Source: an uncultured Gammaproteobacteria bacterium (GTDB taxonomy: Bacteria > Patescibacteriota > Patescibacteriia > UBA9570 > JBBTWU01). Taken from it: 64,000 nucleotides of DNA. Made by a program: the position numbers and the translations under genes. This document shows positions 21,484 to 54,586 of the stretch, one piece after another (the first letter of the stretch is position 1; the number at the start of each line of letters is the position of its first letter). The stretch is from positions 6,941 through 70,940 of the forward strand of contig CAYIMB010000001.1 of NCBI GenBank assembly GCA_964364425.1, in the 5' to 3' direction. The notes beneath the pieces were generated by a model that ran no database searches, was not told the origin of the DNA, and saw only the letters and a program-made list of their open reading frames with translations.

Positions 21484-23160
21484 ATGCCAGGAGGGATTTC
21501 AGAATTAGCCGTGGTCATGGGCTTGGCTGCTGTGTTGGGAATTATTCTTCGTCTATTTAAACAACCGTTAATTTTGGCGTATGTAGCGACCGGAGCTTGC
21601 ATAGGCTTATTTGGATTATTCCAGCTTCCGGACAAAGAAACATTTCAAATCTTTTCAGATCTAGGTATTATGTTTCTCCTGTTCTTGGTTGGATTGGAGA
21701 TGAATTATGCTTCACTCAAGGTGGTAGGCAAGGCTTCCATCATAGTTGGGCTAGCGCAGATTATGTTAACCGCCCTGATTGCCTTGGGGATTGCCCTGAT
21801 CTTCCGCTTCAGCTTACTTGAGTCTGCCTACATCAGTGCAGCTTTGACCTTCTCCAGCACTATTATTGTAGTGAAGTATCTTTCGGATAAAAAGGACGTA
21901 AATAGTCTGTATGGAAAAATCAGTGTTGGGGTGTTATTGGTCCAAGACGCGGTGGCTATTTTGACTCTGTTTTTCCTGACTAGCTTTTTAACCGAATCAG
22001 CCGTTCAGGTGACGCAAGCCTTGACCACTATTGGTTTTGGAATTCTGTTATTCATGTGTATTTTCTTGATTGGACGGTTTTTGTTGCCACCGCTGATGCG
22101 CTCAATTGGGCGTTCTCCCGAATTAGTCTTTGTGGTCAGCTTAGCGTGGTTATTTCTAGTGGTGGGCGCAGTGCACCAACTAGGATTTTCTTTAGAAATT
22201 GGAGGCTTTTTGGCTGGTGTCGCCTTGGCCCAAAGCGCAGAACACATGCAGATTGCTCACCGCATAGGAGCTTTGCGCGACTTTTTTCTCCTCATCTTCT
22301 TTGTCATCCTTGGCTCCTCCTTAATCTATGCTGACTTTCAGGGGTTGTTTGTTCCCATTCTCACACTCACCCTATTTGTACTGATAGGCAAACCGTTAGC
22401 CGTCATGGGAATTATGGGCTTCTTGGGGTATAGAAAACGAACCAGCTGGTTGACCAGTGTAACTCTTGGACAGGTGTCTGAGTTCAGTTTAATTTTGGTT
22501 GCGTTAGGCTTGCAACTTGAACATATCTCAAACCAAGTGGTGAGCCTGGTGACCGCTGTAGCTATTTTGACTATTACTTTTTCCACGTATGAAATGATGT
22601 ACGCAGATAAAGTGGCCAACAAGCTTTCCAGCCTTTTATCTGTGTTTGAAAGAAAGGTGACCAAGGAACCGCATTGGTCAACACAGAAAATTAAGAAGCC
22701 AATTATCTTGATTGGCGCTCACCGGACTGGCCAAAGTATTTTGGCTAACCTACCCATGGAGGAAGCCTTGGTCATAGATTTTGACCCTGAATTAATACAG
22801 CATTTAAAACAACGCGGATATAAAACTTTATTTGGAGATATTAGTGACCCAGAAGTTTTTGAAGCAGCTAGGTTTGGTCAAGCAGAATTAGTCATCTCAA
22901 CCAGCCCAGATATTGAAGACAATGTGTTACTGTTAGAAAAAATTCGGAAGCTGAGACGTCACCCCTTAGTTATTTTACGGGCAGAAACAGAGCGAGAAGC
23001 TGAAGTACTGTATAAACAAGGCGCGGACTACGTGCTCCTCCCGCACTTTACCTCCGGATATTACATTGGCCTAGCCTTGTCCAAGAATCGCACAGCCAAA
23101 AAACTCCATGCTTTGAGGAAAAAAGACGAAAAAATGTTGAACTTACAGGTCGTGTCCTGA
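21484..23160 (+). CDS. Cation:proton antiporter (CPA2/Kef-type) with C-terminal RCK/TrkA-N domain
   Basis: About 12 TM helices followed by a Rossmann-like RCK domain. Confidence 0.8.
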   Translation: MPGGISELAVVMGLAAVLGIILRLFKQPLILAYVATGACIGLFGLFQLPDKETFQIFSDLGIMFLLFLVGLEMNYASLKVVGKASIIVGLAQIMLTALIALGIALIFRFSLLESAYISAALTFSSTIIVVKYLSDKKDVNSLYGKISVGVLLVQDAVAILTLFFLTSFLTESAVQVTQALTTIGFGILLFMCIFLIGRFLLPPLMRSIGRSPELVFVVSLAWLFLVVGAVHQLGFSLEIGGFLAGVALAQSAEHMQIAHRIGALRDFFLLIFFVILGSSLIYADFQGLFVPILTLTLFVLIGKPLAVMGIMGFLGYRKRTSWLTSVTLGQVSEFSLILVALGLQLEHISNQVVSLVTAVAILTITFSTYEMMYADKVANKLSSLLSVFERKVTKEPHWSTQKIKKPIILIGAHRTGQSILANLPMEEALVIDFDPELIQHLKQRGYKTLFGDISDPEVFEAARFGQAELVISTSPDIEDNVLLLEKIRKLRRHPLVILRAETEREAEVLYKQGADYVLLPHFTSGYYIGLALSKNRTAKKLHALRKKDEKMLNLQVVS

Positions 23161-24732
23161 GTAAGACAGGTTGAAGGATTTATTGCACAGGGGGAAATCA
23201 GGAATGATATTACCTAATACACACCAGGCCAGAGCATCCCAGTTGTGGAAGCCGGCGTCTCTGATTTTTACCCGGTTAATTTTACCTTGAGAATCAGTCA
23301 TCACCACATACTGTAATTCACCCCTATTTGATTCCACACAGCTCCAACCAAAACTATTCGGGTTAAGGTCTACGCTCGTTTGTATTTCGCCAGCTTGTTT
23401 TAAGCCCGACAAGCACTGTTCTATGATGTGAATGGATTCAAGCAATTCATCCCGGCGCAGAAGGAAGCGAGCCAGCACATCTCCTTCTTTTCTGACTGGA
23501 ACGGTAAATTGGATTTTGGCGTATTGCCAGGTGGGAAAGTCTCGTCTGGCATCAATATGTATGCCTGAAGCCCGGGCTCCAACCCCAACAACTCCTAAAT
23601 CTTCAGCCACCTGTTTCTTCAATAGGCCGGTTGTTTCCAAGCGGTCAAGAGCACTAGGCATGGCCAAAACAATCTTTAGAATCTCATTCATTTCTGCAGC
23701 AATGCGTTTGAGCTCAGCCAGCAAGCGGTGTTGCTGGTCTTGGGTAAGGTCTTGTTTCACCCCGCCTAGAGTATTTACTCCCCGTAAAAATCGACTTCCC
23801 GTCAGCTCACGGTTGAGTTCAAGTAATTGTTCACGTAAGCGCCAGAGTTGGGAAGCGCCAAAATTGCAACCAATACCAACATTCATGTTGGCCAGGTCAT
23901 GCAAGTGAGTGTTCACCCGCTCTAGCTCCAGGAAAATCATGCGCAACCATTGGGCTCTGATGGGAATAGTCACACCCGCGGCATCTTCTACAGCAGCACA
24001 CAGCCCTGCGGAGTGGGCTATACTGTTGTCGCCAGAGATTTGTTCACTTAAATGGAGCCACTTGTCCTGGGGTAGGTGTTCAAACAATTTTTCCACCCCC
24101 CGGTGTTTCCAGCCAAGACGAATTTCTAAGTTCTGAATAGGTTCTCCGGCCACTTGGAAACGGAAATGGCCTGGTTCAATCACACCAGCGTGAATGGGGC
24201 CCACCGGAACCTCATATATTCCTTCACCCTCATAGCGTTTAAATGGATATGGTCTGGCGTCAGGCGTGCGTTTGACCGGAGCGTTCCAAGCCACATCTTT
24301 GCGTAAAGGAAAAAAGTCCGTCGGCCAATCACTGTGAGCAATGACAGATTTTAGTTCTGGGTGGTTGGAGGGAATCAAACCAAACATATCCCAAATATCC
24401 CGCTCATACCTGGCGGCAGCTACAGACAGGGCGGCGAGGCTGTGGTATTCAGATGATTGTTCCGGAACAACTGTACGTAGGATCAAGATCGATTTTTCTG
24501 CGTCTACTGACCAGATCAAGTACAGTCCAAACCCCTTGCTCTGAACACGTTCGTCCGTAGCAAAGTAATTAGACACGCGGGCGTGGGTGAAGGTTCGCTT
24601 CACGGCTGAAGCCACTTGGTACCACGTCTCAACGGGAACGGTGAATTGGTAACGGTCACCGTTCTGCTCAATACTTTGAGCCAAGTGCGGCCAATCCGCT
24701 AAGGTTTTGTTGAGTTGGTCAACCAGTGTCAT
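23143..24732 (-). CDS. Fused NuoC/NuoD-like (HycE/HyfG-like) large subunit without Ni-Fe ligand cysteines
   Basis: NuoC-like N-terminus (ERYERDIWDMFGL) and large-subunit core (GPIHAGVIEPGHFRF...WKHRGVEKL). The L1 motif reads QISGDNS in place of R-x-CGxC-G, and the C-terminus reads DFPLCNKS in place of DPCxxC. Confidence 0.85.
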   Translation of the reverse strand: MTLVDQLNKTLADWPHLAQSIEQNGDRYQFTVPVETWYQVASAVKRTFTHARVSNYFATDERVQSKGFGLYLIWSVDAEKSILILRTVVPEQSSEYHSLAALSVAAARYERDIWDMFGLIPSNHPELKSVIAHSDWPTDFFPLRKDVAWNAPVKRTPDARPYPFKRYEGEGIYEVPVGPIHAGVIEPGHFRFQVAGEPIQNLEIRLGWKHRGVEKLFEHLPQDKWLHLSEQISGDNSIAHSAGLCAAVEDAAGVTIPIRAQWLRMIFLELERVNTHLHDLANMNVGIGCNFGASQLWRLREQLLELNRELTGSRFLRGVNTLGGVKQDLTQDQQHRLLAELKRIAAEMNEILKIVLAMPSALDRLETTGLLKKQVAEDLGVVGVGARASGIHIDARRDFPTWQYAKIQFTVPVRKEGDVLARFLLRRDELLESIHIIEQCLSGLKQAGEIQTSVDLNPNSFGWSCVESNRGELQYVVMTDSQGKINRVKIRDAGFHNWDALAWCVLGNIIPDFPLCNKSFNLSYSGHDL

Positions 24733-24736
24733 AGAG

Positions 24737-26242
24737 TTAGTAGTTTAATACCAGTTCGGTTAATTTAGCCAGGTATACGGTAAGGCCCAACGGCAGCATG
24801 AGGCCAAGTCCCAGCATGAGCGTTCCGTTTAAGATCATAGCCGCACTGTTCCAAGCTGAAATGCGTACACCTTCCGGAGTATGAACGTGACCATTGTCAT
24901 CCGTTGTGTCTGATACCGGTTTGTGGTTAAACACCAAGCGCATGAGGTTGTATAAGAATCCGACAAAGACAATGACCAACAGGCCCAAGAGCAGCCAGAG
25001 CATCCACCCAGGTGCGTCACTGAGCCCCCAGAGTAAACTAAACTTGCTCAGGAAAATACTGAACGGGGGGAATCCGGTCATGGCCACGGCTGCCAGCATA
25101 AGAGCTAGGCCGGTCATGGGCATAACCTTCATTAAATTTGAAATGTTGGGGATTTTGGTTGATTGGTATTTTAGGAGCACATTTCCGGCGGCAAAGAAAG
25201 AAAAACTTTTGGCAATAGAATGGTTAATGACTTGGAATAAAGCGGCAAAGACACCAAGCGGGGTGGCGAGCGCTAAGCCAATCACAATCAAACCCATGTT
25301 CTCTATGGAACTATAGGCAAACAAACGTTTGTAGTTGTTCTGTCTGAGCAAAGACAGAGCAGCAATCCCTACAGACAAGAAACCTAAAATATACAGTAAT
25401 GTTCCGGTAAATTCTGTGCCTACGGATAAGTCTGAAATCATTTTAACCCTAATCAGAGCAAATAACGCTACGTTGAGCAACACAGCTGAAAGGAGTGCGC
25501 TGATTGGAGTAGGAGCTTTACCATGCGCATCTGGCAACCACGTGTGCATAGGCACCAAACCAATTTTGGTGCCGTATCCAATCAACAAGAAGACAAAGGC
25601 AATTTTGACTAATTCAGGGTTTAACTCACTGCCTAAACTGTGTAAGTGTGTCCACAGGAGTGTGCTGGCTTCTTCTCCTCCGGCGTTTAACCCAGAGAAG
25701 TAGAGCAGCACTGTTCCGGCCAAGGCTAAGGTCAGGCCTACCGAGCTCATGATGACGTACTTCCAAGCGGCCTCAATGCTTTGTTTGTGTCTGTAAATGC
25801 CAACTAAGAATGCGCTAGCTAAGGTTGTTGCTTCAACACCCACCCAGAGTAAGCCTAAGTTGTTGCTACTCACAGCTAAACTCATGGCCAACAAAAAGAC
25901 GTTGTACAAGACGTAATACAATTTCACCTGTCTGGCGTCCATTTCCTGTTGTGCCTCTTCTGTTTTCACATACCCAATAGAGTACAAAGTGACGGAGAAA
26001 CCAATGAACGCAATTAACGCCAAGAAGAAGAATGACAGGGGATCAATGTATAACAAATCACCAAACAACCCCAGACTTTGGTCTACACTCACCACCTCCC
26101 GGTACAAGAAATACATACTCCCAATAGACACCAGACTTGAAGCTAAAGTGGCTGTCTCAAAGATGACCCGTTTCCGTGTGGCCAAACACACCAGCGCGGC
26201 AACCAGTGGAGCAATCAGATATAACCAGTAGACAAGTGTCAT
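24737..26242 (-). CDS. NuoM/N / HyfF-like antiporter-type membrane subunit
   Basis: About 14 TM helices and the Mrp/NuoLMN antiporter-family pattern. Confidence 0.8.
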   Translation of the reverse strand: MTLVYWLYLIAPLVAALVCLATRKRVIFETATLASSLVSIGSMYFLYREVVSVDQSLGLFGDLLYIDPLSFFFLALIAFIGFSVTLYSIGYVKTEEAQQEMDARQVKLYYVLYNVFLLAMSLAVSSNNLGLLWVGVEATTLASAFLVGIYRHKQSIEAAWKYVIMSSVGLTLALAGTVLLYFSGLNAGGEEASTLLWTHLHSLGSELNPELVKIAFVFLLIGYGTKIGLVPMHTWLPDAHGKAPTPISALLSAVLLNVALFALIRVKMISDLSVGTEFTGTLLYILGFLSVGIAALSLLRQNNYKRLFAYSSIENMGLIVIGLALATPLGVFAALFQVINHSIAKSFSFFAAGNVLLKYQSTKIPNISNLMKVMPMTGLALMLAAVAMTGFPPFSIFLSKFSLLWGLSDAPGWMLWLLLGLLVIVFVGFLYNLMRLVFNHKPVSDTTDDNGHVHTPEGVRISAWNSAAMILNGTLMLGLGLMLPLGLTVYLAKLTELVLNY

Positions 26243-26243
26243 A

Positions 26244-26894
26244 TTAGTCTTCCTTCAACTCACTTAATTTTTCTGTATCTGTGGAGTGCATGAGTGTATT
26301 CATCCGGGCGGTCAACAGAGAGAGAATGGTAATGCCTAAGACCACATCTACCAATAGGCCTAGTTCCACCACCGCCGGTAAGCCTAACGTTGTGGCTATG
26401 GCTAACAAGAATACACCGTTTTCCAAAACTAGAAAGCCAACCATCTGACTCAAAGCTGCGCGTTGTGAAATGACCATCAGGAAGCCCAAGAAGATCAAAG
26501 ACATGGCCACCACCAACTGCCACTCACCATGGGGTGAAATAACTGAAGCAACGGGCTGGACAATAAAGTAGGAGAACACAATCAGTAAGCCGCCAATTAA
26601 GGCGATTGGCGCCGGGTTAATGACCGTTGGGGCTTTCAGGGCCGGTTTCAGACGCTTCAACAACAGGAGCAATCCACAGGGGATAGCCACAGCCTTTACT
26701 CCAATGGTGAGTAAAGCGGTCAGCCACAGGTGTTGTTGTCCTAAGTTCACCGCCACAAGGATGGTAATGATGCCAACTAGCGCGGCCTGTCCAATATATA
26801 AGTAGACTTGTGATCTAAAGATTGGCCTGACCAGCATGATCAAGGTAATAAACAGAACTAAACCGGTAAACCATTGAATAAAGTCAGTTATCAT
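26244..26894 (-). CDS. HyfE-like small membrane subunit
   Basis: 216 aa, polytopic, in the position of hyfE between the HyfC-like and HyfF-like genes. Confidence 0.6.
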   Translation of the reverse strand: MITDFIQWFTGLVLFITLIMLVRPIFRSQVYLYIGQAALVGIITILVAVNLGQQHLWLTALLTIGVKAVAIPCGLLLLLKRLKPALKAPTVINPAPIALIGGLLIVFSYFIVQPVASVISPHGEWQLVVAMSLIFLGFLMVISQRAALSQMVGFLVLENGVFLLAIATTLGLPAVVELGLLVDVVLGITILSLLTARMNTLMHSTDTEKLSELKED

Positions 26895-27838
26895 AAGCTT
26901 GCAAAGAGTTGAGTTACTAGGGCAATCATGGCCACCACCCAGCCCATACCCAGGAGTGCCGGTACTCTGAGCAAGCGCATTTTAGCCATAGAAGACTCCA
27001 CCAAGGCAATGAGGATAGCTAAGATGAACACTTTTCCTAACCAGAGGACTGTCCCAAGCAACACTGCGCTTAACGTCCACTCCGTAGCCATGCCCCAAGG
27101 CACAACTAAGCTAGCCAAAATGCTCAACATCACCGTGAGTTTAGTCATACTCCCAATCTCCATTAAGGCCAGGTTTTTTCCGGAATTTTCCAAGATCATG
27201 GCTTCATGTACCATGGTGAGCTCTAAGTGTGTGGTTGGGTTATCAAAGGGATAACGGGCATTTTCCGCCAGGGTGATGAGGAAAAAAGACAAGAAGACCA
27301 AAATCAAGGCTGGGTCTAACCAGGCATGTGGGGTGCCTAAGACATGACTGATTATTTCCCCAGGGTAGGTAGATCCTCCGGTCAAGGCTAAAGCAAACAA
27401 GGCAGTAATAAAGACTGGTTCAGCCAAGGCGCTGATCATGGCCTCTCTAGAAGAACCCATGCCTCCAAAGGTCGTCCCTGCGTCCAAGCCGGACAGGACC
27501 AAGAAAGCAGTACCCAGGACCAGAATAAAACCGACAAAAATCATATCAGCCTGAGCGCCAAGGTTGGTGACGTTTGGAAGTAAAAATGCAGCTGTTGCGG
27601 TGGTTCCAAACACCATATATGGGGCGAGTTTAAACACCCAGGAGGTCACATCAGACACCACAGCATCTTTACGGATAAATTTGAGAATATCTCGGTATCC
27701 CTGGAGCAAGGGAGCGCCAACGCGTCCTTGCAGACGAGCTTTGACTTTACGTATAACCCCCGTGACCAGAGGCGCAACGGTCAGCAGCAGCAGACCTTGA
27801 GCGAGAGAAATCAGAATGGCTTGTGTTGTCTGAGTCAT
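26891..27838 (-). CDS. NuoH / HycD / HyfC-like membrane subunit
   Basis: N-terminal GxIRKxKARLQGRxGxPLLQxYRDxLK signature. Confidence 0.85.
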   Translation of the reverse strand: MTQTTQAILISLAQGLLLLTVAPLVTGVIRKVKARLQGRVGAPLLQGYRDILKFIRKDAVVSDVTSWVFKLAPYMVFGTTATAAFLLPNVTNLGAQADMIFVGFILVLGTAFLVLSGLDAGTTFGGMGSSREAMISALAEPVFITALFALALTGGSTYPGEIISHVLGTPHAWLDPALILVFLSFFLITLAENARYPFDNPTTHLELTMVHEAMILENSGKNLALMEIGSMTKLTVMLSILASLVVPWGMATEWTLSAVLLGTVLWLGKVFILAILIALVESSMAKMRLLRVPALLGMGWVVAMIALVTQLFASL

Positions 27839-29925
27839 ATCGTTTTGGCTAACAACAGGAGAGCAATTAACGCCAGCATCATGTAAGTGAGGTAACTATA
27901 GATGTGACCGGATTGTACTTTTTTTACGGAGTTGCCTAAGCGAATGGAAAACCGGGTGATGGGTCTGACCACATAGTCATCAAAGAAGGCCAACGTGTGG
28001 ACTGAATATGAACGGACATGCCAGAAGTAAAAGTTATCCTGCCCTTTGGTCACATGGACTTGTTCTTTAGGACGCAAGAAATAGCGCAAGGCATGCCGCA
28101 CAGGGCTGGTAAACCCAAGGCCTGAATATTGCATGCGTTCATTTAGGGGAGAACCGCAATCCCAAGACGGGCCTTTGACCACTCTGTTTTTCCCTCCCAC
28201 TAATTTCAAGATAATCCAAGCCAGTAGCATCAAGCCAAGCAGAAATACCAGAACCGTCCAAGCGCTGTTTCCAAATGAGACTGTTCCAGTGAGCTGTGCT
28301 TGATAGCTGAGGGTGGTTAGTGGCTCCAGTAGGTCAATAACGTTTGATCCAGCCGCTTGTTTTGTGATCCCCCAAAATTTAGGTAGACGTGCCAGTGTAT
28401 CTAGGACCTCACCCATGCCAAGCGAGATGCCTAAGGCACCTGCCGCCAAGACCAGCATAGAAATACGCATAGACAAAGGAGTTTTAGCCGGTGTAGGAAT
28501 ACCAGCGTCATGGGGTGTCCGGTTCCGGCCTAAGAACACAATTCCAAACATACGGGTGAAGACCACAAAGGCTAAGCCTGCGGCAAAAGCCAGGGCTCCT
28601 AAAATAAGAGGAAAGATAAAGCGCGCTCCCATACTTCCGGTCATAAAACCCTGTAACAACGTTTGTAGCATGAGCCACTCAGAGGCAAATACGCTGAGTG
28701 GAGGAAGGCCCATTAACCCAATTGCACCAACCAAGAAGATCATGGAAGTCAGAGGCAATACTTTGGCCACCCCACCTAGTAAATCCATAGACCTGGTGTG
28801 GAAGGAAAAATACACACTCCCCGCACCCAAGAATAATAACGATTTAAGCACCGCATGATTTACCGTATGCAGCAACGCAGCAATAATTGCTACGTGGGCA
28901 ATGGCCGGTTTCCCAATTGAGGTAAAATACATAGCCGCACCCAAGCCAATAAAAATAATTCCAATATTCTCTATAGAAGAGAAGGCTAAGGCTTTTTTCA
29001 TGTCGCGGCGTTCAATGGCATAAAACACGCCCACCAAAGCAGAAATTCCACCTAAGGCCATGACCAACAGCCCCCACCAGGGAGACATGACTTCCAACAT
29101 GCTTAAACCAAATACGCGGAAGAAGCCATACACCGCTACTTTTAACATCACTCCGGACATCAAGGCGGAAATATGCGACGGGGCTTGTGGGTGTGCTTCC
29201 GGCAACCACATATGCATGGGGACTAAGCCGGCTTTTGTTCCGAAGCCTAAAACTAAGAGGATAAAAGCAAAGGTGGCCATGCCCGGGGTCAGAAATCCGC
29301 CCACGCCCGTCCAATCGTTAAAAAACAGAGATCCGCTGTTATATGAGAAAATAATAAACACGGCCATCAAGAATGCGGTGCCAATCTGCGTCATAATGGC
29401 ATAGATAAATCCGGCTGGTCGGGCTTTGGCGTGGGAGTGTTGGTACACCACCAGCGCAAACGAAGTGAGCGCCATGATTTCCCAGGCAAATAAGAAAGTA
29501 AGAGCATGGGAGGCCACTAAGACCAAGGCCATAGACGCAATAAACCAGTTGGTCATGGCTCCTAGCCAGCCAAGACTATGGTGGCCAATATAGAGCTTGG
29601 CGTACCCAATTCCGTATAAGCTAGTAACAGCGGCTATACCACCCAGAAGTAGCAAAAATAGGCCAGAAAAGGCATCTATATGGATAGATCCTTGGCCAAA
29701 AATGAGGAAATAGGGAAGAGAAAAGGCTTTGTCTTGAGCGGCTTGATGTAAGGCTGTATATCCAACCAGAGCTAAGACCACGCCTCCTACCACGCCTCCC
29801 CAACCACTCACCCAGCGGGACAACACTTGGGCACGGCTACATACCAAAGCAAACGCCCCAGACGCCACTAAGATGCCTAGACTGGTGGTAAAAAGTGCCA
29901 GATTTGAGCTCCCAACCTGTATCAT
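27835..29925 (-). CDS. NuoL / HyfB-like antiporter-type membrane subunit
   Basis: 696 aa, about 17 TM helices, antiporter-family core. Confidence 0.8.
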   Translation of the reverse strand: MIQVGSSNLALFTTSLGILVASGAFALVCSRAQVLSRWVSGWGGVVGGVVLALVGYTALHQAAQDKAFSLPYFLIFGQGSIHIDAFSGLFLLLLGGIAAVTSLYGIGYAKLYIGHHSLGWLGAMTNWFIASMALVLVASHALTFLFAWEIMALTSFALVVYQHSHAKARPAGFIYAIMTQIGTAFLMAVFIIFSYNSGSLFFNDWTGVGGFLTPGMATFAFILLVLGFGTKAGLVPMHMWLPEAHPQAPSHISALMSGVMLKVAVYGFFRVFGLSMLEVMSPWWGLLVMALGGISALVGVFYAIERRDMKKALAFSSIENIGIIFIGLGAAMYFTSIGKPAIAHVAIIAALLHTVNHAVLKSLLFLGAGSVYFSFHTRSMDLLGGVAKVLPLTSMIFLVGAIGLMGLPPLSVFASEWLMLQTLLQGFMTGSMGARFIFPLILGALAFAAGLAFVVFTRMFGIVFLGRNRTPHDAGIPTPAKTPLSMRISMLVLAAGALGISLGMGEVLDTLARLPKFWGITKQAAGSNVIDLLEPLTTLSYQAQLTGTVSFGNSAWTVLVFLLGLMLLAWIILKLVGGKNRVVKGPSWDCGSPLNERMQYSGLGFTSPVRHALRYFLRPKEQVHVTKGQDNFYFWHVRSYSVHTLAFFDDYVVRPITRFSIRLGNSVKKVQSGHIYSYLTYMMLALIALLLLAKTI

Positions 29926-30464
29926 ACAGAGGTTGTTTTAGCGGCCAGACGGTCAACGGCAGCCAAGAGTCCGGCCAACAGATCTGAAGGGGTTGGTGGG
30001 TTTCCAGGAATCCAGATATCCACAGGCAAGACCGCATCCACGCCACCAACAATTCCGTAAGAACCCTTAAAAATACCACCGTCTTTAGCGTTATCTCCAA
30101 AAGCCACCACAATTTTAGGTGTTGGCATGGCGTTATACGCACGTTTTAAGGCCTCTTCCATATTTCGTGAGACCGGACCGCTGACTAACAACATATCTGC
30201 GTGCCTAGGCGAAGCAGCCACATGAATACCATAGCGTTCCATATCATAGTAGGGGTTGGCCAACATATTCACTTCAACCTCTTCCGCGTTGCTGGAACCC
30301 GGATCAACCTCACGGATATGCAAAGAACGGCCAATCAGCCGTTTTATTTTTTGACTTAACTCCCCACGCAGCAGTTCAATATCTTTTGGAACAGCGGCTT
30401 CCTGAGCGAATTTTTTTTTGGTCACTACCCCGTTTAAGAGGCTTTTTTTGAGCAACTGAAACAT
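29922..30464 (-). CDS. NuoB / HycG-like small subunit lacking all four [4Fe-4S] cysteine ligands
   Basis: Conserved NuoB scaffold (ASPRHADMLLVSGPV...YNAMPxPKxVxAFG...GGVDxxLPVDIWIPGxPP). The four Cys positions read P, S/A, N and N. Confidence 0.85.
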   Translation of the reverse strand: MFQLLKKSLLNGVVTKKKFAQEAAVPKDIELLRGELSQKIKRLIGRSLHIREVDPGSSNAEEVEVNMLANPYYDMERYGIHVAASPRHADMLLVSGPVSRNMEEALKRAYNAMPTPKIVVAFGDNAKDGGIFKGSYGIVGGVDAVLPVDIWIPGNPPTPSDLLAGLLAAVDRLAAKTTSV

Positions 30465-30636
30465 AATTGAGAATTATAACTCCTCCCGCAAATCGAATTT
30501 TATCAGACAACTGTCAAGTAGTATTAGGAATACGAATCTCCTTGTCAAATGGCCTAAAAGCGAGTTTTATACAGCATGTCAAGGCAAAAAGGGGCTTGAC
30601 GCCGGGAAAAAAAATGATCCAAAAATTTTGGCTGGG

Positions 30637-30665
30637 TTGACACAAAATCCCGTACTCCGTAGACT
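30637..30665 (+). promoter_or_regulatory. Sigma70-type promoter TTGACA-N17-TAGACT for the ATP synthase operon
   Basis: Consensus -35 with a 17-nt spacer, 24 nt upstream of the atpZ-like ATG. Confidence 0.6.
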
Positions 30666-30689
30666 GGGAACGCGTAAACTTGACAGAGT

Positions 30690-30901
30690 ATGGATAAAGA
30701 ACCGTCTTGGGCTGATTCAATGCGCCTGGTAGGTCAGCTTGGTTTTGAAATAGCGTTGCCCCTGGTGGGAGGAGCGTGGGGAGGGCACTGGCTGGACCAA
30801 CGCTATACTGCCTCACCTAAGTTTTTGTTGGTTGGGATGGTTTTAGCCGTGATTCTCTCTACACTCTTGGTGGCACACAAAATTAAACAGTTGCTGAAAT
30901 A

Positions 30902-30902
<1 letters not shown>
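30690..30902 (+). CDS. AtpZ/AtpI-like small membrane protein
   Basis: 70 aa, two TM helices, immediately upstream of atpB. Confidence 0.6.
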
Positions 30903-31977
<1,075 letters not shown>

Positions 31978-31978
31978 C

Positions 31979-32479
31979 ATGGAATTCATAGAAAAATTTG
32001 GGATCGATTGGAAACTGTTGATTGCGCAAGCGGTTAACTTTGCCATTGTGCTTTTGGTCTTATGGAAGTTTGCTTACAAACCCATCTTGAAGTTGCTGCA
32101 TGACCGGGAAAACAAAATTGATCAGAGTTTAAAAGACGCGGACAGAGTGGAAAAGTTGAAAGTGGAAATGGAGCAGGAAAAGTCCAAAGTTTTGGCTCAG
32201 GCAAAGAAGGAAGCACAGGTGGTTTTGCAGGAGGCACAGAAGAAAATCGAAATGAATAGACAGGCACAAATGGACAAAACAAAAGGGGAGGTACAGCAGC
32301 TAGTGACCAAAGCCAAACAAGAAATTGCTGCGGAAAAGGTGAAGGCCATGAAGCAAGCGGAAAAGGAATTGGGCTCAATTGCGGTGACTATTGCAGAGAA
32401 GTTAGTCAAACGTGAGCTGACTGATACAGATCATGCTCGCTTGGTGAGTGAGACTTTGAAGGAAATAGGAACCGTATGA
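31979..32479 (+). CDS. atpF: F-type ATP synthase Fo subunit b
   Basis: One TM helix then a long charged helix. The ATG at 31979 is preferred over the TTG at 31970. Confidence 0.85.
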   Translation: MEFIEKFGIDWKLLIAQAVNFAIVLLVLWKFAYKPILKLLHDRENKIDQSLKDADRVEKLKVEMEQEKSKVLAQAKKEAQVVLQEAQKKIEMNRQAQMDKTKGEVQQLVTKAKQEIAAEKVKAMKQAEKELGSIAVTIAEKLVKRELTDTDHARLVSETLKEIGTV

Positions 32480-32877
32480 AGCGCGTATCCCCGGGGCAAC
32501 TCGCCAGACAATTATTCAAAGCTTTGGAAAGCTCGCAAGAGCAGGACCTAGTCATTCAGGTATTTGCGGAGCAACTGGTGCGGCACAGACTGAGACGACA
32601 TTTGCCTCAAATCTTGCGAGCCCTAGAGACGCTTTTAGATGAGAAAGAAGGATTGGTTAAAGCGAAGTTTACTAGTCCAGTAGAGGTAACGAACCACTTA
32701 AAAAAACAAGTTGAGCAGGCCGTTTCTCAAGCTGTGGGTAAACGTGTGGAACTAGAGACGCACCAGGACCAAGACTTACTTGGTGGAGCCGTGCTCAAAA
32801 TAGGGGATACCGTGTACGACGCTTCAATTCGTACACAATTAGCAAAATTGAAACTTTCGGTAGAGAACTATGGATAA
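32476..32877 (+). CDS. atpH: F-type ATP synthase subunit delta (short)
   Basis: Position in the operon and OSCP-like C-terminal region. Confidence 0.75.
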
Positions 32878-34369
32878 AGAAAAAATATTAGACTCGCTTA
32901 AACAACACATTTCTAGCTTTGCCGCTACGGTGGATAAAGCAGAAGTGGGAACCGTGATTGAAGTGGGAGACGGCGTGGCCAAATTATCTGGACTAACCCA
33001 AGCGGTGGCAGATGAAATGATTGAATTTGCCAACGGTGCGTATGGAGTGGTGTTGAACTTAGAGTCAGAACAAGTGGGCGCTATGGTGTTGGGTGATTTT
33101 TCTACCATCCGTGAAGGTGAAACGGTCAAACGAACCAATCGTATTTTGTCTGTTCCGGTGTCTGATGCCTTGATTGGTCGCGTGGTCAATCCTTTAGGCA
33201 TGCCTTTGGATGGAAAAGCAGCTATCTCATCCAAGGAATTCTATCCAGTAGAACGTATTGCACCTGGTGTTATTCAACGTCAAAAAGTGGATCAACCGGT
33301 ACAAACGGGTATCAAAGCTATAGACGCCATGATCCCAATTGGTCGTGGTCAACGTGAGTTGATTATTGGTGACCGGCAAACTGGTAAAACGGCCATTGCT
33401 ATAGACGCCATCATCAACCAAAAGGGGAAAGACCTGATTTGTATTTACGTAGCTATAGGTCAAAAGGAATCTAAGACCGCTCGGATTGTGGCCAAACTGC
33501 AAGAGACCGGAGCTATGGACTACACTATAGTGGTGAACGCTCCAGCTTCTAGCCCAGCTTCCTTGCAATATATTGCTCCATACGCCGGTGTAGCTATAGC
33601 TGAATTCTTCATGGACCAAGGGAAAGATGTATTGGTTGTATATGATGATTTGTCCAAGCATGCTTGGGCCTACCGTCAGATCTCTTTGATCTTACGTCGT
33701 CCACCGGGTCGTGAAGCCTACCCGGGTGATATTTTCTATGCTCACTCTCGTTTGTTGGAACGGGCTAACCGTCGAGCCAAAGAATTTGGTGGAGGTTCCA
33801 TCACTGCCTTACCAATTATTGAAACTCAAGCCGGTGACGTGTCTGCCTATATTCCAACCAACGTGATTTCCATTACTGACGGTCAAATCTACTTGGAGTC
33901 AGACTTGTTCTACCAAGGTATTCGTCCAGCCTTGAACGTAGGTTTGTCTGTGTCTCGTGTAGGTTCAGCAGCCCAACTCAAGCCTATGAAAAAAGTAGCT
34001 GGAAAATTACGTTTAGACTTAGCTCAATACCGTGAGTTGGCCGCTTTTGCCCAATTTGGGTCTGACTTGGATGAGGCAACCAAAAAGCAGCTAGAGCGCG
34101 GTAAACGCACCATTGAAATCTTGAAACAAGATCAATACCAACCAGCTTCTGTGGCGCATCAAGTGTTGGCCATATACGCTGTGTCTAACGGATTCATGGA
34201 TGATGTAGAAGTAGACAGCGTTCGTCGTTTTGAAAATGAAATGACGGAATATGTTGATCAATCCGCTCGTGAGTTAGTGGAAAAAGTGGAAAGTGGTGAT
34301 TGGAGTGATGAAACTGCAGACAAAGTGAAAAAATTGATTGAGGACTTTAAGCAAGTGTGGAGTAAGTAA
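32870..34369 (+). CDS. atpA: F-type ATP synthase subunit alpha
   Basis: Walker A motif GDRQTGKT and alpha-specific motifs. Confidence 0.95.
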
Positions 34370-34370
34370 T

Positions 34371-36708
<2,338 letters not shown>

Positions 36709-36725
36709 ATCGATTATTACGCGAC

Positions 36726-37190
36726 ATGAAACTGACACTCAAAGTCACTACTCCAGACCGAACGTTGATCAACGCTGAAGTTGATCAGGTGACGGTACCT
36801 ACAAAAGAAGGGGAGATCACCATTCTCCCTGGACACGTGTCCTTAATGGGTGTGCTGGCACCAGGGGAATTAAGTATGAAAACTGATGCGAAGGAAGAAG
36901 CTGTTGTGGTCTACGGTGGCTTTGTGGATATCAGAGATGGAAGAGAAGTCAGAATTTTAGCTGATGAAGCTGCTCACGTTGCGGAGTTGGATTTAGAAAA
37001 GGCGGAAGCCGCACACGCTCTCGCGGTGCGGGTTATGGCTGAAAAGTTCAACCCAAGCGACTATGAAGATGCAGCACTTGCTGTTGAAAGAGAATTGGCG
37101 ACCATTCGAGTTGCTCGCAAATGGAAAGCCAAAGGCTTTGGAACAAGTACGGTGACAAGTGGGATCCCTGGGGCGCAAAGAAAAGAATAA
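36726..37190 (+). CDS. atpC: F-type ATP synthase subunit epsilon
   Basis: Beta-sandwich N-terminus, helical C-terminus, last gene of the operon. Confidence 0.85.
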   Translation: MKLTLKVTTPDRTLINAEVDQVTVPTKEGEITILPGHVSLMGVLAPGELSMKTDAKEEAVVVYGGFVDIRDGREVRILADEAAHVAELDLEKAEAAHALAVRVMAEKFNPSDYEDAALAVERELATIRVARKWKAKGFGTSTVTSGIPGAQRKE

Positions 37191-38150: not shown

Positions 38151-38159
38151 GTGGGAAGT

Positions 38160-41100
38160 ATGGAAAAAATCTTAGACGGTCTGAATTCAGCTCAAGCCGA
38201 AGCGGTGTGCCACCGGAATGGTCCATTGTTGTTGGTGGCCGGAGCGGGGACGGGAAAAACGACAGTCATTACCAGGCGCTTGGCCAAGCTCATTCAGGAT
38301 GGGGTGGCTACTCCTGATCAGGTATTAGCTCTGACCTTTACTGACAAGGCAGCGGGTGAGATGGAAGAGCGTATAGATACTTTGATGCCCTATGGGTATA
38401 CAGATTTATGGGTATCTACATTTCATTCTTTTGGAGAACGTTTGCTCCATGAGTATGGGCTGGACATAGGCCTGCCGCATCAATTCAAATTGTTGAATCA
38501 AACGGATCAATGGTTACTCTTGCGCGAACATATTGAGGAATTGGGCCTGGAGTACTACCGGCCAAAAGGCAATCCGACCAAATTTGTTGAAGCGTTATCT
38601 CACCATTTTTCTCGTTTGAAAGATGAGATGATTACACCGGAGCAATATGTGGAATATGCAGAAAAGTTGTGTCTAAACTTAGACGCAGAAGTTGCGCGGA
38701 CAAAACAAACCTTAACAGATGAAGAACGGGCAGGTGCAGATGAAGCCATACGTATTCGCGAGTTAGCCCACGCCTACCATGTATATCAACAGTTATTACT
38801 GGCAGAAAACGCTTTAGACTTTGGTGATCTGATTTTCCATACCGTGCAGTTACTAAAAAAACGTCCGGCTATTTTAAAAAAATTGCGTGATCAATTTCGC
38901 TATATTATGGTAGATGAGTTTCAAGATACCAACTTGGCACAATACGAGCTGATCAAGTTAATTGCTTCACCTAAAAATAATTTGGTGGCCGTGGGTGATG
39001 ATGACCAATGCCTCCCGGTAGGAACAAAAGTAACCATCCCCGGCGGAGAAAAAAGTATTGAGAGCATTAAATCTGGCGATGTGGTTTTGACTGCAGTCGG
39101 GAAAGGAAGTTTGAGCACTTCCGTAGTTTTAGCCTGTTCAAAAAAGAAAAAGACTTCAAGATTTCTTACATTTCAACTAGAAGATGGTCATTCATTAACT
39201 GCTACAGATAATCACAAGCTTTTTTGTTACGTCCCAAGAATTGATCAAGGGGGTAGAACCTATGTTTATGTGATGCATAGTTCATTGTTTGGGTGGAGGA
39301 TTGGAATAACAAATGATTTGGCCACCAGGTTATCTTTAGAAAGGGGTGCTGATAAAATTATAGCTTTACGCTCATTTTCTGATCCAGATGAAGCGAAGTT
39401 CTATGAAATACTGTGGGTTCTGCGTTATCAAATTCCGCCTGTTTGTTTTAAAGAAAGAGAGGGGGTAGCCATTAAGGGGGAATGGTTGAGTCGTCTATAC
39501 CATGAAATAGACACTGAAAAGAATATACAAAAGTTAGCAAAAGATCTGAGGGTAGATTTGCATAGTCATCATGTTGGTTTAGATAGTGTCAATAGAGGTC
39601 GGGGCAAGCGGCTAAAGATTCATTTTAAACTTTGCTATAGAAGTCATAAAATAAAAGGGAGGAATGATTCGATTCTATCTCAACCCCTTGTTCAACATAT
39701 AGTTGAGTTCCAAACTTCCCAATTAGACATCATCCGGAAATTAAAGTTAGCGGGAATTGAAACTCAGAAAGCTAAAAAAGGAATCAGGATCAGAAAGGCA
39801 GGTGTTGACTTAACTGTATTAGAAAACTTTGCACAAAAGGTTGCAGAGATTACAACAGGCTACATTGAATACTCTTTCGATGTCGGGAGAGTAAATATAC
39901 AATCTAAAAAAGCTTTATGTATGCCAGCAGGGAATGTTGTGATTGGTCATTTTTTGCCCGTACAAGTTAAAAATCATATTGAGTATAAAAAGGTTATTGC
40001 TATTCAAGAAAAAGTTACTACGGAGAATGTATATGATTTGGAGATTGCCAGAAGTCACAACTTTTTGGCTAATGGAGTAGTAGTACATAATTCGATTTTC
40101 AAATGGCGTGGAGCATCCGTGTCTAATATTCTGCACTTCCAAAAAGATTTTCCAAACCTGAAGCAAATCGTGCTCACAGAAAATTACCGGTCAGGGCAAC
40201 CTATTCTGGATTTAGCCTACCAATTCATTCAGCAAAATAATCCGGACCGTTTGGAATCAAAACTAGAGATTCAAAAACGGTTGGTGGCTAAGTCAGGACG
40301 TGAGGGAAAGGTATTTCATTTGCGCAGTATGACCGGAGAAGGTGAGGCGCATACTATTGTGAGAAAGATTGCGGAGTTGAAACAGGAACATCCGGACTGG
40401 ACCTGGAGTGATTTTGCCGTTTTGGTTAGGGCGAATGATCATGCGGAAAGTATTTTACCGTTGTTGGAACGGGCCAACATTCCTTACCAGTATGTAGCTT
40501 CCACGGGATTATTTTTGAAACCGCTTATGTTGGATATTTTGTCGTATTTGCGCGTGGTGGAAAATGTGCATAACAATTTGGCTTTGTACCGCGTGCTGAC
40601 CATGCCCATGTGGAAGCTGGCGGCAGAAGATGTGATGGCAGTGTTGAATTACACTGCCCGCAAACCGGTGGGGATGTTGGACACGCTGAAGAACTGTCGA
40701 GCCATTGGGGGCCTGAGCGTTCCAGCGTGTGTGACCATAGAACGCATGCTTTCACTCATGGCCCAGCACTCCCAATTGGTGCGTGAAAAACATGCGGGAG
40801 AGGCGGTCTTGAAGATTGTTCAAGACGTTGGATTGATGAAATGGATGACGGATCAAGAGGAACAGAAGGCGGCACAACATTTGGTCTTACTCAACCAATT
40901 ATTCCAACTGATCGCCTCGTTTGAACAAAGTGCTGAGGATAAGCGGGTTAAATACTTTCTACACAACGTAGATTTAATGCTTGAGGCTGGGGATGCTGGT
41001 GCACTGAAAGTAGATATTGATGAAGGGCCGGAATCAGTTAAAGTCATGACGGTACACGCTTCCAAGGGTCTGGAGTTTCAAGCCGTATTTGTCACCAATC

Positions 41101-51285: not shown

Positions 51286-54011
<2,726 letters not shown>

Positions 54012-54025
54012 TACGGCTGATAGTC

Positions 54026-54586
54026 ATGGGAGGTTATACTTGGCCACAACTTATCCTTGGATCGCTCTGGTTTATTTTACCTATTGGCTTGGCTAACATG
54101 GCCCCGGTGCTCTTTCGTTCGGCCATGAAGTTTTTGGCTAAACCAATAGACGGTGGCCGCCTGGTTATGGGCAGGCCGTTATTTGGTTCACACAAAACTT
54201 GGCGCGGATTGATATTTGCTACTGGAGCCGGGGAAATTATTTTTTTGATGCAACTTGGGATCATTGTGACCTTTCCAGATGTGAGGCACATCACCCTGTT
54301 TGATTATTTTAGCGTTCCCTTATGGACTGGGTTCATTCTTGGGTTTGGTGCCATCTTTGGCGACTTATTTAAGAGTTTTGTGAAGCGGCGGGTGAGTGTC
54401 AAACCTGGAGAACGCTGGTTTCCTTTTGATCAAATCGATTATCTGCTGGGAGGGCTGATTGCTATTTCTCTAGTGAATCCCGTGGCCTGGTTTGTGTGGG
54501 TTGCTGTTTTGGTCGGGGGGTTGATTCTCCACTTGTTGGTCAACAATATTGGTTATGCTTTGGGCTTGAAAGATACACGCTGGTAG
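54026..54586 (+). CDS. CDP-archaeol synthase-like (CarS/DUF46 family) membrane protein
   Basis: KPIDGGR...G...KTWRG signature and polytopic topology. Confidence 0.6.
   Translation: MGGYTWPQLILGSLWFILPIGLANMAPVLFRSAMKFLAKPIDGGRLVMGRPLFGSHKTWRGLIFATGAGEIIFLMQLGIIVTFPDVRHITLFDYFSVPLWTGFILGFGAIFGDLFKSFVKRRVSVKPGERWFPFDQIDYLLGGLIAISLVNPVAWFVWVAVLVGGLILHLLVNNIGYALGLKDTRW

What the first reader, a model, noticed from the sequence alone, without database searches (positions are those of the whole stretch)
23143..24732. Fused NuoC-NuoD-like large subunit with Ni-Fe site replaced (CxxC to SxxN)
The N-terminal roughly 150 aa are NuoC/HycE-N-like (ERYERDIWDMFGL). The large-subunit core is conserved (WKHRGVEKL). 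The L1 motif reads EQISGDNSIAHSAGLCAAVE where HycE has ERVCGICGFAHSTAYCQAVE, and the C-terminus reads DFPLCNKS where HycE has DPCYSC. This looks like a NuoD-like, non-hydrogenase member of the family. Whether it keeps the quinone-site His/Tyr is not known.
Basis: seen in the sequence. Interest (0 to 1): 0.6.

Follow-up and report, generated by a model that had tools for sequence, protein, structure and literature searches.

The report
Complex-I-like Ehr machine without redox cofactors
This gene encodes the large subunit of a known hydrogenase-derived membrane complex ("Ehr") in a Patescibacteria (CPR) bacterium; the variant here has lost the nickel-iron site and also the only iron-sulfur cluster, and it lies next to the ATP synthase genes, so it probably moves ions without doing any redox chemistry.

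Summary
It is a fused NuoC/HycE-type large subunit whose four Ni-Fe cysteines are S233, N236, S523 and G526.

It is not NuoD-like. The closest solved relative is E. coli HycE, and the quinone His/Tyr of NuoD are absent. It belongs to the known, functionally uncharacterised Ehr family (energy-converting hydrogenase-related). A CPR-specific Ehr clade lacking the cysteines was reported in 2020.

It is not a pseudogene: dN/dS is 0.06 or less for the five genes where it could be computed (synonymous sites saturated).

I found no report of the following in the papers I could search. The NuoB/HycG-like small subunit has also lost all four [4Fe-4S] ligands (to S, E, N, N). A large sister clade has T/S, C/E, D, D. 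No ferredoxin-like subunit is encoded. The antiporter-type Lys/Glu residues and the NuoH-type coupling loop are mostly intact. In 6 of 8 cluster-less loci the operon adjoins the H+-type F1Fo ATP synthase operon; in about 75 other loci it never does.

Best reading: a redox-independent ion translocator tied to proton-motive-force homeostasis. The mechanism is inferred.

The parts
23143..24732 (-). EhrL: fused NuoC-like (residues 31-150) + HycE/NuoD-like large subunit, 529 aa. Ni-Fe ligand positions are S233, N236, S523, G526. It ends at the position where mature HycE ends.
24737..26242 (-). EhrD: HyfF/NuoN/MrpD-like antiporter-type subunit, 501 aa. TM5 Glu, TM7 Lys and TM12 Lys are kept; TM8 Lys is Asn.
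26244..26894 (-). EhrC: HyfE-like membrane subunit, 216 aa, with a weak NuoK-like C-terminal half. K67 and E158-N159 are invariant. No solved homologue was found by sequence.
26891..27838 (-). EhrB: HycD/NuoH-like subunit, 315 aa. The TM5-6 coupling loop PFDNPTTHLELTMVHEAMILENSG is identical in all five clade members and conserved up to true 4f hydrogenases.
27835..29925 (-). EhrA: HycC/HyfB/NuoL-like antiporter-type subunit, 696 aa. TM5 Glu, TM7 Lys, TM8 Lys, TM11 His/Lys and TM12 Glu are all kept, as in HycC.
29922..30464 (-). EhrS: HycG/NuoB-like small subunit, 180 aa, first gene of the operon. All four [4Fe-4S] cysteine ligands are replaced (S58, E61, N125, N155). It is the most conserved subunit of the complex at depth.
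30465..30689 (.). Intergenic region between the Ehr operon and the ATP synthase operon, with two back-to-back sigma-70-like sites: minus strand 30548-30520 and plus strand 30637-30665. These are consensus matches only. No Rfam element was found.
30690..37190 (+). Context: divergently transcribed F1Fo ATP synthase operon (atpI-like, a, c, b, delta, alpha, gamma, beta, epsilon). The c subunit (31765-31977) lacks the Na+-binding Gln/Ser/Thr signature, so it is the H+ type.
21484..23160 (+). Context: convergent CPA2-type cation/H+ exchanger with a TrkA_N gating domain. Its 3' end overlaps the 3' end of ehrL by 18 nt. The same neighbour is present in L005 and L006.

Best explanation
The ORF is EhrL, the large subunit of a six-gene Ehr operon (ehrS-A-B-C-D-L, 30464 to 23143, minus strand) in a Patescibacteria/CPR bacterium. 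Ehr stands for energy-converting-hydrogenase-related. The complex descends from group-4 (4f-like) [NiFe] hydrogenases and keeps their architecture. It has a peripheral module of small subunit plus fused NuoC/large subunit. This sits on a NuoH-like subunit, a HyfE-like subunit and two antiporter-like subunits. In this clade every canonical redox cofactor site is gone. The Ni-Fe site is Ser/Asn/Ser/Gly. The single [4Fe-4S] site of the small subunit is Ser/Glu/Asn/Asn. No ferredoxin-like (HycF/NuoI) subunit is encoded. I infer that the complex no longer transfers electrons and instead works as a redox-independent ion translocator. In this reading the two antiporter-like subunits move H+, possibly in exchange for another cation as in the related Mrp antiporters. 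The conserved polar pocket of EhrL/EhrS and the NuoH-type loop would act as a protonation- or ion-sensitive gate. The system would serve proton-motive-force or pH homeostasis together with the adjacent H+-F1Fo ATP synthase. Shown here: identity, cofactor-ligand loss, purifying selection, an almost intact set of membrane-arm residues, and synteny. Inferred: absence of any cofactor, the transport function, the ions moved and the direction.
For: Identity: Pfam domains of all six proteins. Best solved relatives are the E. coli FHL subunits HycE, HycG, HycD and HycC. The AF2 model has pTM 0.84 and its top Foldseek hit is HycE with TM 0.86. Ehr signature: SGD(N/S/T) and NLSYSG(H/N)DL are invariant from CPR to Methanoperedens and Nitrospiria, and are seen in over 60 of 87 surveyed loci, which were the best 80 of 569 confirmed matches in the genome collection. 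Cluster loss: the HycG motifs CGGCNGCE / GACG / PGCPP correspond to PGSSNAEE / GDNA / PGNPP. The replacement pattern is S/T-E-N-N in all 12 clusters of the window's clade. The sister clade has S/T-C/E-D-D: all 99 new top hits of a profile search are non-CCCC. No Fer4 ORF lies in or beside the operon. Selection: dN/dS is 0.015-0.058 against the nearest locus for the five genes where it could be computed (EhrD was not computable), with dS saturated. EhrS is the best conserved subunit at depth, 73-77% versus 45-65% for the others. Membrane arm: the Lys/Glu set is retained in both antiporter-like subunits apart from one Lys-to-Asn change. The EhrB loop PxDNPxTHLELTMxHExMxLExSG is conserved from true hydrogenases to the cluster-less forms. 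Synteny: the ATP synthase operon adjoins the Ehr operon in the window, L001, L005, L002/L009, L007 and L091, in three different arrangements. That is 6 of 8 cluster-less loci with readable flanks, against 0 of about 75 other Ehr/4f loci. Other neighbours are ion transporters: a CPA2 exchanger, or a CBS protein plus a CitMHS/ArsB-type carrier.
Against: No transport assay exists for any Ehr complex. The operon lacks MrpB/E/F/G-type subunits that Mrp antiporters need, so there is no recognisable Na+ path. If the peripheral arm were only a cap, the small subunit would not be expected to be the most conserved subunit. Nor would the pocket residues (E186, H189, S233, D235, H240, N517-K518-S519, S523, D528) be expected to stay invariant. 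That pattern suggests chemistry or ligand binding there. The cysteine replacements are oxygen donors (Glu, Asp, Asn, Ser, Thr), which hints at a bound cation of unknown role. Two cluster-less loci (L092, L093) are not near an ATP synthase, and L092 sits beside a group-3b-like hydrogenase operon. Part of the synteny signal is shared ancestry, because the flanks of the window, L001 and L005 are collinear. TM8 Lys of EhrD is Asn.
Confidence: 0.5

Rival explanations
1. Non-redox chemistry at the former Ni-Fe pocket. The conserved polar pocket (Ser, Asp, Asn, Lys, His), perhaps with a hard metal ion in the ex-cluster site, binds and converts a substrate. Candidate reactions are hydration/dehydration, decarboxylation or hydrolysis. 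The reaction is coupled through the NuoH-type loop to proton translocation. The complex would then be either a primary pump feeding the neighbouring ATP synthase or a PMF-driven enzyme, by analogy with CO2 hydration by cyanobacterial NDH-1MS/Cup and the DAB complexes.
For: Pocket residues and the C-terminal tail are invariant across Ehr proteins only 42-48% identical overall. The coupling loop of EhrB is unchanged from true hydrogenases. EhrS is the most conserved subunit. The cysteine ligands are replaced recurrently by carboxylate or amide side chains: S-E-N-N, T-C-D-D, D-A-A-D, D-T-E-D. The operon is linked to the ATP synthase in organisms generally held to lack respiratory chains (the physiology is background knowledge).
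Against: There is no candidate substrate, no catalytic-domain homologue and no accessory enzyme gene in the operon. The same pocket is present in Ehr complexes that still have the Fe-S cluster, so its conservation may reflect structure or gating rather than catalysis. In the monomer model the pocket-forming segments have low confidence (residues 160-211 and 506-529), so geometry cannot be judged.
Confidence: 0.2
2. It is still a redox enzyme. Electrons would arrive through an unconventional cofactor, such as a cluster or mononuclear metal held by Asp/Glu/Ser/Cys, or from a docking partner such as ferredoxin or the soluble group-3b hydrogenase. They would reduce an unknown acceptor in the pocket, as is usually assumed for Ehr complexes.
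For: Typical Ehr small subunits keep all four Cys: 71 of 82 surveyed loci. The literature assumes a redox role (PMC6349859, PMC10432482). One cluster-less locus is adjacent to a group-3b-like hydrogenase operon (L092). Most of the sister clade keeps one Cys (T-C-D-D).
Against: The window's clade has none of the four Cys, and no Fer4 subunit is encoded. To my knowledge, a [4Fe-4S] cluster with three or four non-Cys ligands is unprecedented. Neither the quinone His/Tyr nor the Ni-Fe ligands are present. CPR bacteria generally lack quinones (background knowledge; partly stated for related lineages in PMC6349859).
Confidence: 0.12
3. It is a decaying relic: a hydrogenase or complex-I remnant drifting toward loss in a reduced genome.
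For: All cofactor ligands are lost, and CPR genomes are reductive. In one CPR locus (L011, Azambacteria) the NuoH-like gene is split into two ORFs.
Against: All six ORFs are intact and tightly packed. dN/dS is 0.06 or less despite saturated synonymous sites. The replacement residues themselves are conserved across more than 100 protein clusters. The operon order S-A-B-C-D-L is conserved in nine independent loci.
Confidence: 0.02
4. It is a NuoD-like quinone-reducing module: a simplified complex I or NDH-1.
For: The Complex1_49kDa and Complex1_30kDa domains are fused as in E. coli and Aquifex NuoCD.
Against: Nqo4 Tyr87 aligns with Gly234, and His38 has no His counterpart. There are no N2 cluster ligands and no NuoA/J/K/I/E/F/G genes. 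The protein is closer to HycE than to any NuoD.
Confidence: 0.02

Closest known systems
Ehr (energy-converting / Ech-hydrogenase-related) complexes, e.g. Geobacter sulfurreducens EhrA-D, L, S (GSU0739-45). The CPR Ehr clade was noted by Jaffe et al. 2020 (PMC7304191).
   Same: The subunit set is the same: NuoL-like, NuoH-like, HyfE-like, NuoN-like, large and small subunits. The large subunit lacks both CxxC motifs and carries the family-wide SGD(N/S/T) and NKSFNLSYSG(H/N)DL signatures. The function of the family is unknown.
   Different: Typical Ehr complexes keep the four Cys of the small-subunit [4Fe-4S] cluster and have gene order A-B-C-D-L-S. Here the order is S-A-B-C-D-L, all four ligands are replaced, and the operon is linked to the ATP synthase.
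Group 4 [NiFe] hydrogenases: E. coli FHL/Hyc (PDB 7Z0S), Hyf, and the uncharacterised group 4f
   Same: These are the best sequence and fold matches for every subunit. The operon content is Hyf-like. The DFPLxNKSF motif and the NuoH-type loop are shared with 4f-like enzymes of Alicyclobacillus and Thermomicrobiales.
   Different: There are no Ni-Fe ligands, no proximal cluster, no HycF/HycB ferredoxin-like subunits, and no formate dehydrogenase or maturation genes nearby.
Respiratory complex I Q-module (NuoB/NuoCD/NuoH) and P-module (NuoL/M/N)
   Same: The folds and architecture are homologous, including the C-D fusion seen in E. coli and Aquifex. The antiporter-like subunits carry the canonical Lys/Glu residues.
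   Different: There is no cluster N2, no quinone His/Tyr and no N-module. There are only two antiporter-like subunits and no NuoA/J genes.
Mrp (Mnh/Pha/Sha) multisubunit cation/H+ antiporters
   Same: Mrp is the only established redox-free relative of this machinery. MrpA/MrpD-type subunits (PF00361) and a NuoK/MrpC-like element are present. This makes Mrp the functional analogy for the proposed mechanism.
   Different: Mrp has no peripheral NuoB/C/D-like module and no NuoH-like subunit, and it needs MrpB/E/F/G, which are absent here.

Membership tests
Ehr (energy-converting hydrogenase-related) complex | The large subunit is homologous to group-4 [NiFe]-hydrogenase large subunits. | tested here: met
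   HycE E=1.9e-67; Foldseek TM 0.86; Pfam PF00346 and PF00329.
Ehr (energy-converting hydrogenase-related) complex | Both CxxC Ni-Fe binding motifs (L1, L2) are absent. | tested here: met
   C241, C244, C531 and C534 of HycE correspond to S233, N236, S523 and G526.
Ehr (energy-converting hydrogenase-related) complex | The gene is encoded with a NuoB-like small subunit, a NuoH-like subunit, a HyfE-like subunit and antiporter-like membrane subunits. | tested here: met
   Six contiguous genes, 30464-23143. The same set is present in L001, L002, L005, L007, L090-L093.
Ehr (energy-converting hydrogenase-related) complex | The small subunit retains the [4Fe-4S] ligands. This is typical of the family but is not part of its published definition as far as I could read. 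| tested here: not met
   S58, E61, N125 and N155 replace the four Cys. 71 of 82 other surveyed small subunits are CCCC.
Group 4 [NiFe] hydrogenase | Four cysteine ligands of the Ni-Fe centre, plus a proximal [4Fe-4S] cluster in the small subunit. | tested here: not met
   No hyp or maturation protease gene lies among the annotated neighbours.
Complex I NuoD/NuoB (quinone module) | Quinone-headgroup ligands (T. thermophilus Nqo4 His38 and Tyr87) and the four-Cys site of cluster N2 in NuoB. | tested here: not met
   Tyr87 aligns with Gly234; His38 aligns with Ile185/Pro187 (residues counted from the printed alignment). The N2 Cys are all replaced.
Mrp cation/H+ antiporter | A seven-subunit set, MrpA-G, including MrpB/E/F/G, and no peripheral arm. 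| tested here: not met
   Only MrpA/D-like (PF00361, two copies) and a weak NuoK/MrpC-like match were found. A NuoB/C/D/H-like module is present.
Mrp cation/H+ antiporter | Cation/proton exchange activity. | not testable with these tools
   This needs flux assays or complementation.

The most novel reading that the evidence does not exclude
The CPR-type Ehr is a complex-I-like energy converter that has replaced redox chemistry altogether. A non-redox reaction, or ion binding, at the former Ni-Fe/Fe-S pocket would drive (or be driven by) proton translocation through a nearly complete antiporter module. This would give respiratory-chain-less CPR bacteria a dedicated partner for their ATP synthase. 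It would be the first member of the complex I superfamily with a full Q-module-like peripheral arm that works without electrons.
Probability: 0.15. Interest if true: 0.85.

Novelty: new variant of a known kind. Interest (0 to 1): 0.5.

Why it matters
What stands out is that the whole peripheral arm here is predicted to be free of cofactors, yet it is under the strongest purifying selection in the complex. The hydrogenase/complex-I coupling loop and almost all antiporter residues are kept, and the genes travel with the ATP synthase.

If confirmed, this would be a natural 'electron-free' complex-I-type machine. It would be useful for separating conformational and electrostatic coupling from redox chemistry in complex I, MBH and FHL. 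It is also a concrete candidate for how CPR bacteria, which lack electron-transport chains, manage their proton-motive force.

It also bears on metabolic annotation. These genes are currently labelled 'NADH-quinone oxidoreductase subunit' or 'Ni,Fe-hydrogenase III', which would wrongly imply respiration or H2 metabolism in CPR genomes.

Tried and rejected
- **Plus-strand reading:** the given coordinates on the + strand are full of stops; the gene is on the minus strand.
- **Genome-collection scan with the single protein:** no relatives found. Repeating with the clade alignment worked but returned mostly distant Ehr/4f loci.
- **Riboswitch or other RNA element upstream of the operon:** none found, either at Rfam gathering thresholds over the whole window or at E<=1 in the intergenic region. 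There is therefore no ligand clue.
- **Na+-coupling hint from the ATP synthase c subunit:** rejected. The Gln/Glu-Ser-Thr motif is absent in the window, L002, L005 and L091.
- **Solved homologue of the HyfE-like subunit:** none by sequence.
- **Marreiros et al. 2013, the paper that defined Ehr:** not held in the library. Whether it mentions cluster-less small subunits could not be checked. Searches of the held literature found no such statement.
- **Monomer AF2 model:** too uncertain in the pocket-forming segments (residues 160-211 and 506-529) to judge site geometry.
- **Pseudogene and NuoD-like readings:** considered and rejected (see rival explanations).
Full report
**1. Observation**

The coordinates 23143-24732 hold an intact 529-aa ORF, but on the minus strand. 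The plus-strand translation is full of stops. Pfam finds a NuoC-type domain (PF00329, residues 31-150) fused to a NuoD/HycE-type domain (PF00346).

The best solved relative is HycE of the E. coli formate hydrogenlyase (7z0s_E, E=1.9e-67). T. thermophilus Nqo4 scores E=5e-39. An AlphaFold2 model built on 20 homologues has pTM 0.84 and mean pLDDT 81. Its best Foldseek match is HycE (TM 0.86), followed by the fused NuoCD of Aquifex and E. coli.

The quoted motifs are present, with one letter wrong: the sequence reads ARYERDIWDMFGL. In the HMMER alignment, HycE 'DPC531-Y-S-C534-TDR' matches 'NLS523-Y-S-G526-HDL', which is the end of the protein. 'DFPLCNKS' lies upstream, and the motif also occurs in true hydrogenases of the same branch ('DFPLINKSFELCYACCDR'). 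All four Ni-Fe ligands are therefore replaced.

**2. What the protein is**

A database search gives one identical protein, labelled 'MAG: NADH-quinone oxidoreductase subunit C [Patescibacteria group bacterium]'. Eleven close relatives follow at 57-84% identity. After a gap come thousands of proteins at 48% identity or less, from Methanoperedens, Methanocella, Nitrospiria and others.

In an alignment of both sets, S233-G-D235, H240, C245 and the tail N517-K-S-(F/L)-x-L-S-Y-x-G-x-D are invariant. This is the signature of the Ehr family, the energy-converting (Ech) hydrogenase-related complexes. These are group-4-hydrogenase relatives that lack the Ni-Fe cysteines, and their function is unknown (PMC6349859, PMC10284858, PMC10432482, PMC7894505).

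Jaffe et al. 2020 already reported that CPR bacteria carry a monophyletic Ehr clade without the metal-binding cysteines, and concluded that these proteins 'likely cannot interact with H2' (PMC7304191).

A scan of one genome per species found at least 569 genomes with relatives. The best 80 include Paraburkholderia, Caballeronia, Casimicrobiaceae, Melainabacteria, Legionellaceae, Actinomadura and Chloroflexota, alongside true 4f-like hydrogenases of Alicyclobacillus and Thermomicrobiales.

**3. NuoD-like? The quinone-site question**

I counted residues in the printed alignment to T. thermophilus Nqo4. Tyr87 aligns with Gly234, which is invariant in Ehr. His38 aligns with Ile185, or with Pro187 if the two-residue loop insertion shared with HycE is allowed for. 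Either way it falls next to the hydrogenase-type Glu186. Neither quinone ligand is present, and the protein is closer to HycE than to any NuoD. 'NuoD-like' is not supported.

**4. The operon**

ehrL is the last of six tightly packed, often overlapping genes on the minus strand:
- ehrS, HycG/NuoB-like, 29922-30464
- ehrA, HycC/HyfB/NuoL-like, 27835-29925
- ehrB, HycD/NuoH-like, 26891-27838
- ehrC, HyfE-like, 26244-26894
- ehrD, HyfF/NuoN-like, 24737-26242
- ehrL, 23143-24732

There is no HycF/NuoI-type ferredoxin gene, no other redox partner, and no hyp gene in the neighbourhood.

**5. The feature I found no report of: the Fe-S cluster is gone too**

Aligned with HycG, MbhJ and NDUFS7, the four cysteines of the proximal [4Fe-4S] cluster (N2-type) are S58, E61, N125 and N155. 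The motifs 'CGGCNGCE', 'GACG' and 'PGCPP' become 'PGSSNAEE', 'GDNA' and 'PGNPP'.

Among the 120 best database homologues of the small subunit:
- 97 have all four Cys.
- The 12 clusters of the window's clade all have S/T-E-N-N.
- A sister group of 9 has S/T-E/C-D/A-D/N. The two groups form one clade in an NJ tree.

A profile built from the Cys-less sequences retrieved 99 further clusters, none with four Cys: T-C-D-D in 75, T-E-D-D in 8, S-E-D-D in 7, S-C-D-D in 7, S-E-D-N in 1 and T-E-D-N in 1. One of them is annotated Candidatus Paceibacterota. Three long contigs of that group (L091-L093) have the same S-A-B-C-D-L order and Ehr-type large subunits.

A Chloroflexi MAG (L090) has independently reached D-A-A-D with an Ehr-type large subunit. 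By contrast, typical Ehr operons have order A-B-C-D-L-S and keep all four Cys (71 of 82). So does a CPR Azambacteria Ehr with S-first order (L011).

The window's complex therefore has no predictable binding site for any canonical redox cofactor. The replacements are consistently oxygen-donor side chains. This suggests, but does not show, that a hard cation or a hydrogen-bond network fills the former cluster cavity. I found no paper in the searchable library that mentions this loss. The paper that defined Ehr is not held.

**6. Not a relic**

Against the nearest locus (L005), dN is 0.04-0.10 while synonymous sites are saturated (dS > 1.3). This gives dN/dS of 0.015-0.058 for the five genes where it could be computed; for EhrD synonymous differences were too saturated. 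At greater depth the cofactor-less small subunit is the most conserved subunit, at 73-77% identity against 45-65% for the others.

**7. The ion-translocation machinery is mostly intact**

EhrA keeps the TM5 Glu, TM7 Lys, TM8 Lys, TM11 His/Lys and TM12 Glu exactly as HycC does. EhrD keeps the TM5 Glu, TM7 Lys and TM12 Lys; its TM8 Lys is Asn. EhrC keeps an invariant Lys and the NuoK-like 'LEN' Glu.

The EhrB loop that corresponds to the NuoH TM5-6 coupling loop reads PFDNPTTHLELTMVHEAMILENSG. It is identical in all five clade members and is nearly unchanged in cluster-containing Ehr and in true 4f-like hydrogenases.

**8. Context**

The operon is transcribed divergently from a complete F1Fo ATP synthase operon (30690-37190). 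Back-to-back promoter-like sites lie in the 225-bp spacer; these are consensus matches only. On the other side the operon converges on a CPA2 cation/H+ exchanger with a TrkA_N domain. The c subunit lacks the Na+ signature.

ATP-synthase adjacency recurs in L001 and L005 (divergent), in L002/L009 and L007 (downstream, after a CBS protein and a CitMHS/ArsB-type carrier), and in L091 (atpI starts 125 bp after ehrL, on the same strand). That is 6 of 8 cluster-less loci with readable flanks, in three arrangements. None of about 75 other Ehr/4f loci has ATP synthase genes within 10 kb.

The two exceptions are L092, which lies next to a group-3b-like hydrogenase operon and glycolysis genes, and L093. 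Part of this signal is inherited synteny. No riboswitch or other Rfam element was found.

**9. Mechanism**

Shown here:
- Descent from group-4f-like hydrogenases.
- Loss of all Ni-Fe and Fe-S ligands.
- Absence of a ferredoxin-like subunit.
- Strong purifying selection on every subunit, the peripheral ones included.
- A nearly complete set of antiporter and coupling-loop residues.
- Genetic linkage to the H+-ATP synthase and to ion carriers.

Inferred: the complex no longer transfers electrons and acts as a redox-independent H+ (or H+/cation) translocator serving PMF or pH homeostasis, with the polar EhrL/EhrS pocket acting as a protonation- or ion-sensitive gate. My confidence is about 0.95 for the identification, about 0.85 for 'no canonical redox cofactor', and about 0.4 for the transport function as stated.

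The main rival, at about 0.2, is that the strictly conserved pocket performs non-redox chemistry coupled to proton movement. The high conservation of the peripheral arm is the strongest argument for that reading. Residual redox function through an unconventional cofactor or partner (about 0.12) cannot be excluded without biochemistry. The pseudogene and NuoD-like readings are effectively refuted.

**10. Verdict**

The flagged feature is genuine, but it is the known hallmark of Ehr large subunits and has been described for CPR. The added value is that this CPR branch is a variant without any predicted redox cofactor, is highly conserved and is linked to the ATP synthase. That makes it a new variant of a known kind, of moderate interest, with a low-probability but high-interest reading as an electron-free complex-I-type energy converter.

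Noticed in passing
L018, L020, L025, L046 (Chloroflexota MAGs): These operons (order A-B-C-D-L-S) have a large subunit with all four Ni-Fe cysteines (ERxCGxC ... ELCYxCLDR). Their small subunit has lost three or four of the [4Fe-4S] ligands (GSDNGTDWE, GAEACGGG, PGDPP). This would be an apparent [NiFe] site with no proximal cluster to feed it.
   Followed up: partly
L090:10001-17536 (Chloroflexi MAG GCA_009692745.1): A second, apparently independent cofactor-less Ehr. It has S-first gene order, small-subunit ligands D-A-A-D, and an Ehr-type large subunit (SGDT / LSYSGNDL).
   Followed up: partly
L092:4715-9288 (Candidatus Paceibacterota contig): A cluster-less Ehr operon lies divergently next to a group-3b-like [NiFe] hydrogenase operon (Fer4 protein, NAD-binding/DHODB Fe-S protein, small subunit, large subunit, HypA). 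Glycolysis genes are nearby. No ATP synthase lies within 10 kb.
   Followed up: no
window 38151-42182 (+) and 51315-54011 (+): Two housekeeping genes carry intein (Hint/Intein_splicing) insertions. One is a UvrD/AddA-type helicase-nuclease (1343 aa). The other is GyrB (898 aa).
   Followed up: no
window 54026-54586 (+): A 186-aa protein matches the CarS-like CDP-archaeol synthase family (PF01864, E=4e-30) in a bacterial genome. It lies just upstream of nusG and the rplK-rplA genes.
   Followed up: no
window 23143-23160: The 3' ends of ehrL (minus strand) and the CPA2/TrkA_N exchanger gene (plus strand) overlap by 18 nt. The same convergent pair is present in L005 and L006.
   Followed up: partly
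L009 = L002 (CAZRYK010000013.1): The public record title calls this contig 'uncultured Gammaproteobacteria bacterium'. Its Ehr operon is 60% identical to the Patescibacteria one in the window and belongs to the same cluster-less clade, so the taxonomic label looks doubtful.
   Followed up: no
L011:5911-6886 (Candidatus Azambacteria): This CPR Ehr operon has S-first order and still has a four-Cys small subunit. Its NuoH-like gene is split into two ORFs, which may be a frameshift or an assembly error.
   Followed up: no
window 30690-30902 (+): A small 70-aa membrane ORF lies immediately upstream of atpB. The corresponding gene in L005, L002, L007 and L091 is PF09527 (ATPase_gene1, AtpI-like). 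It is the first gene facing the Ehr promoter region.
   Followed up: partly
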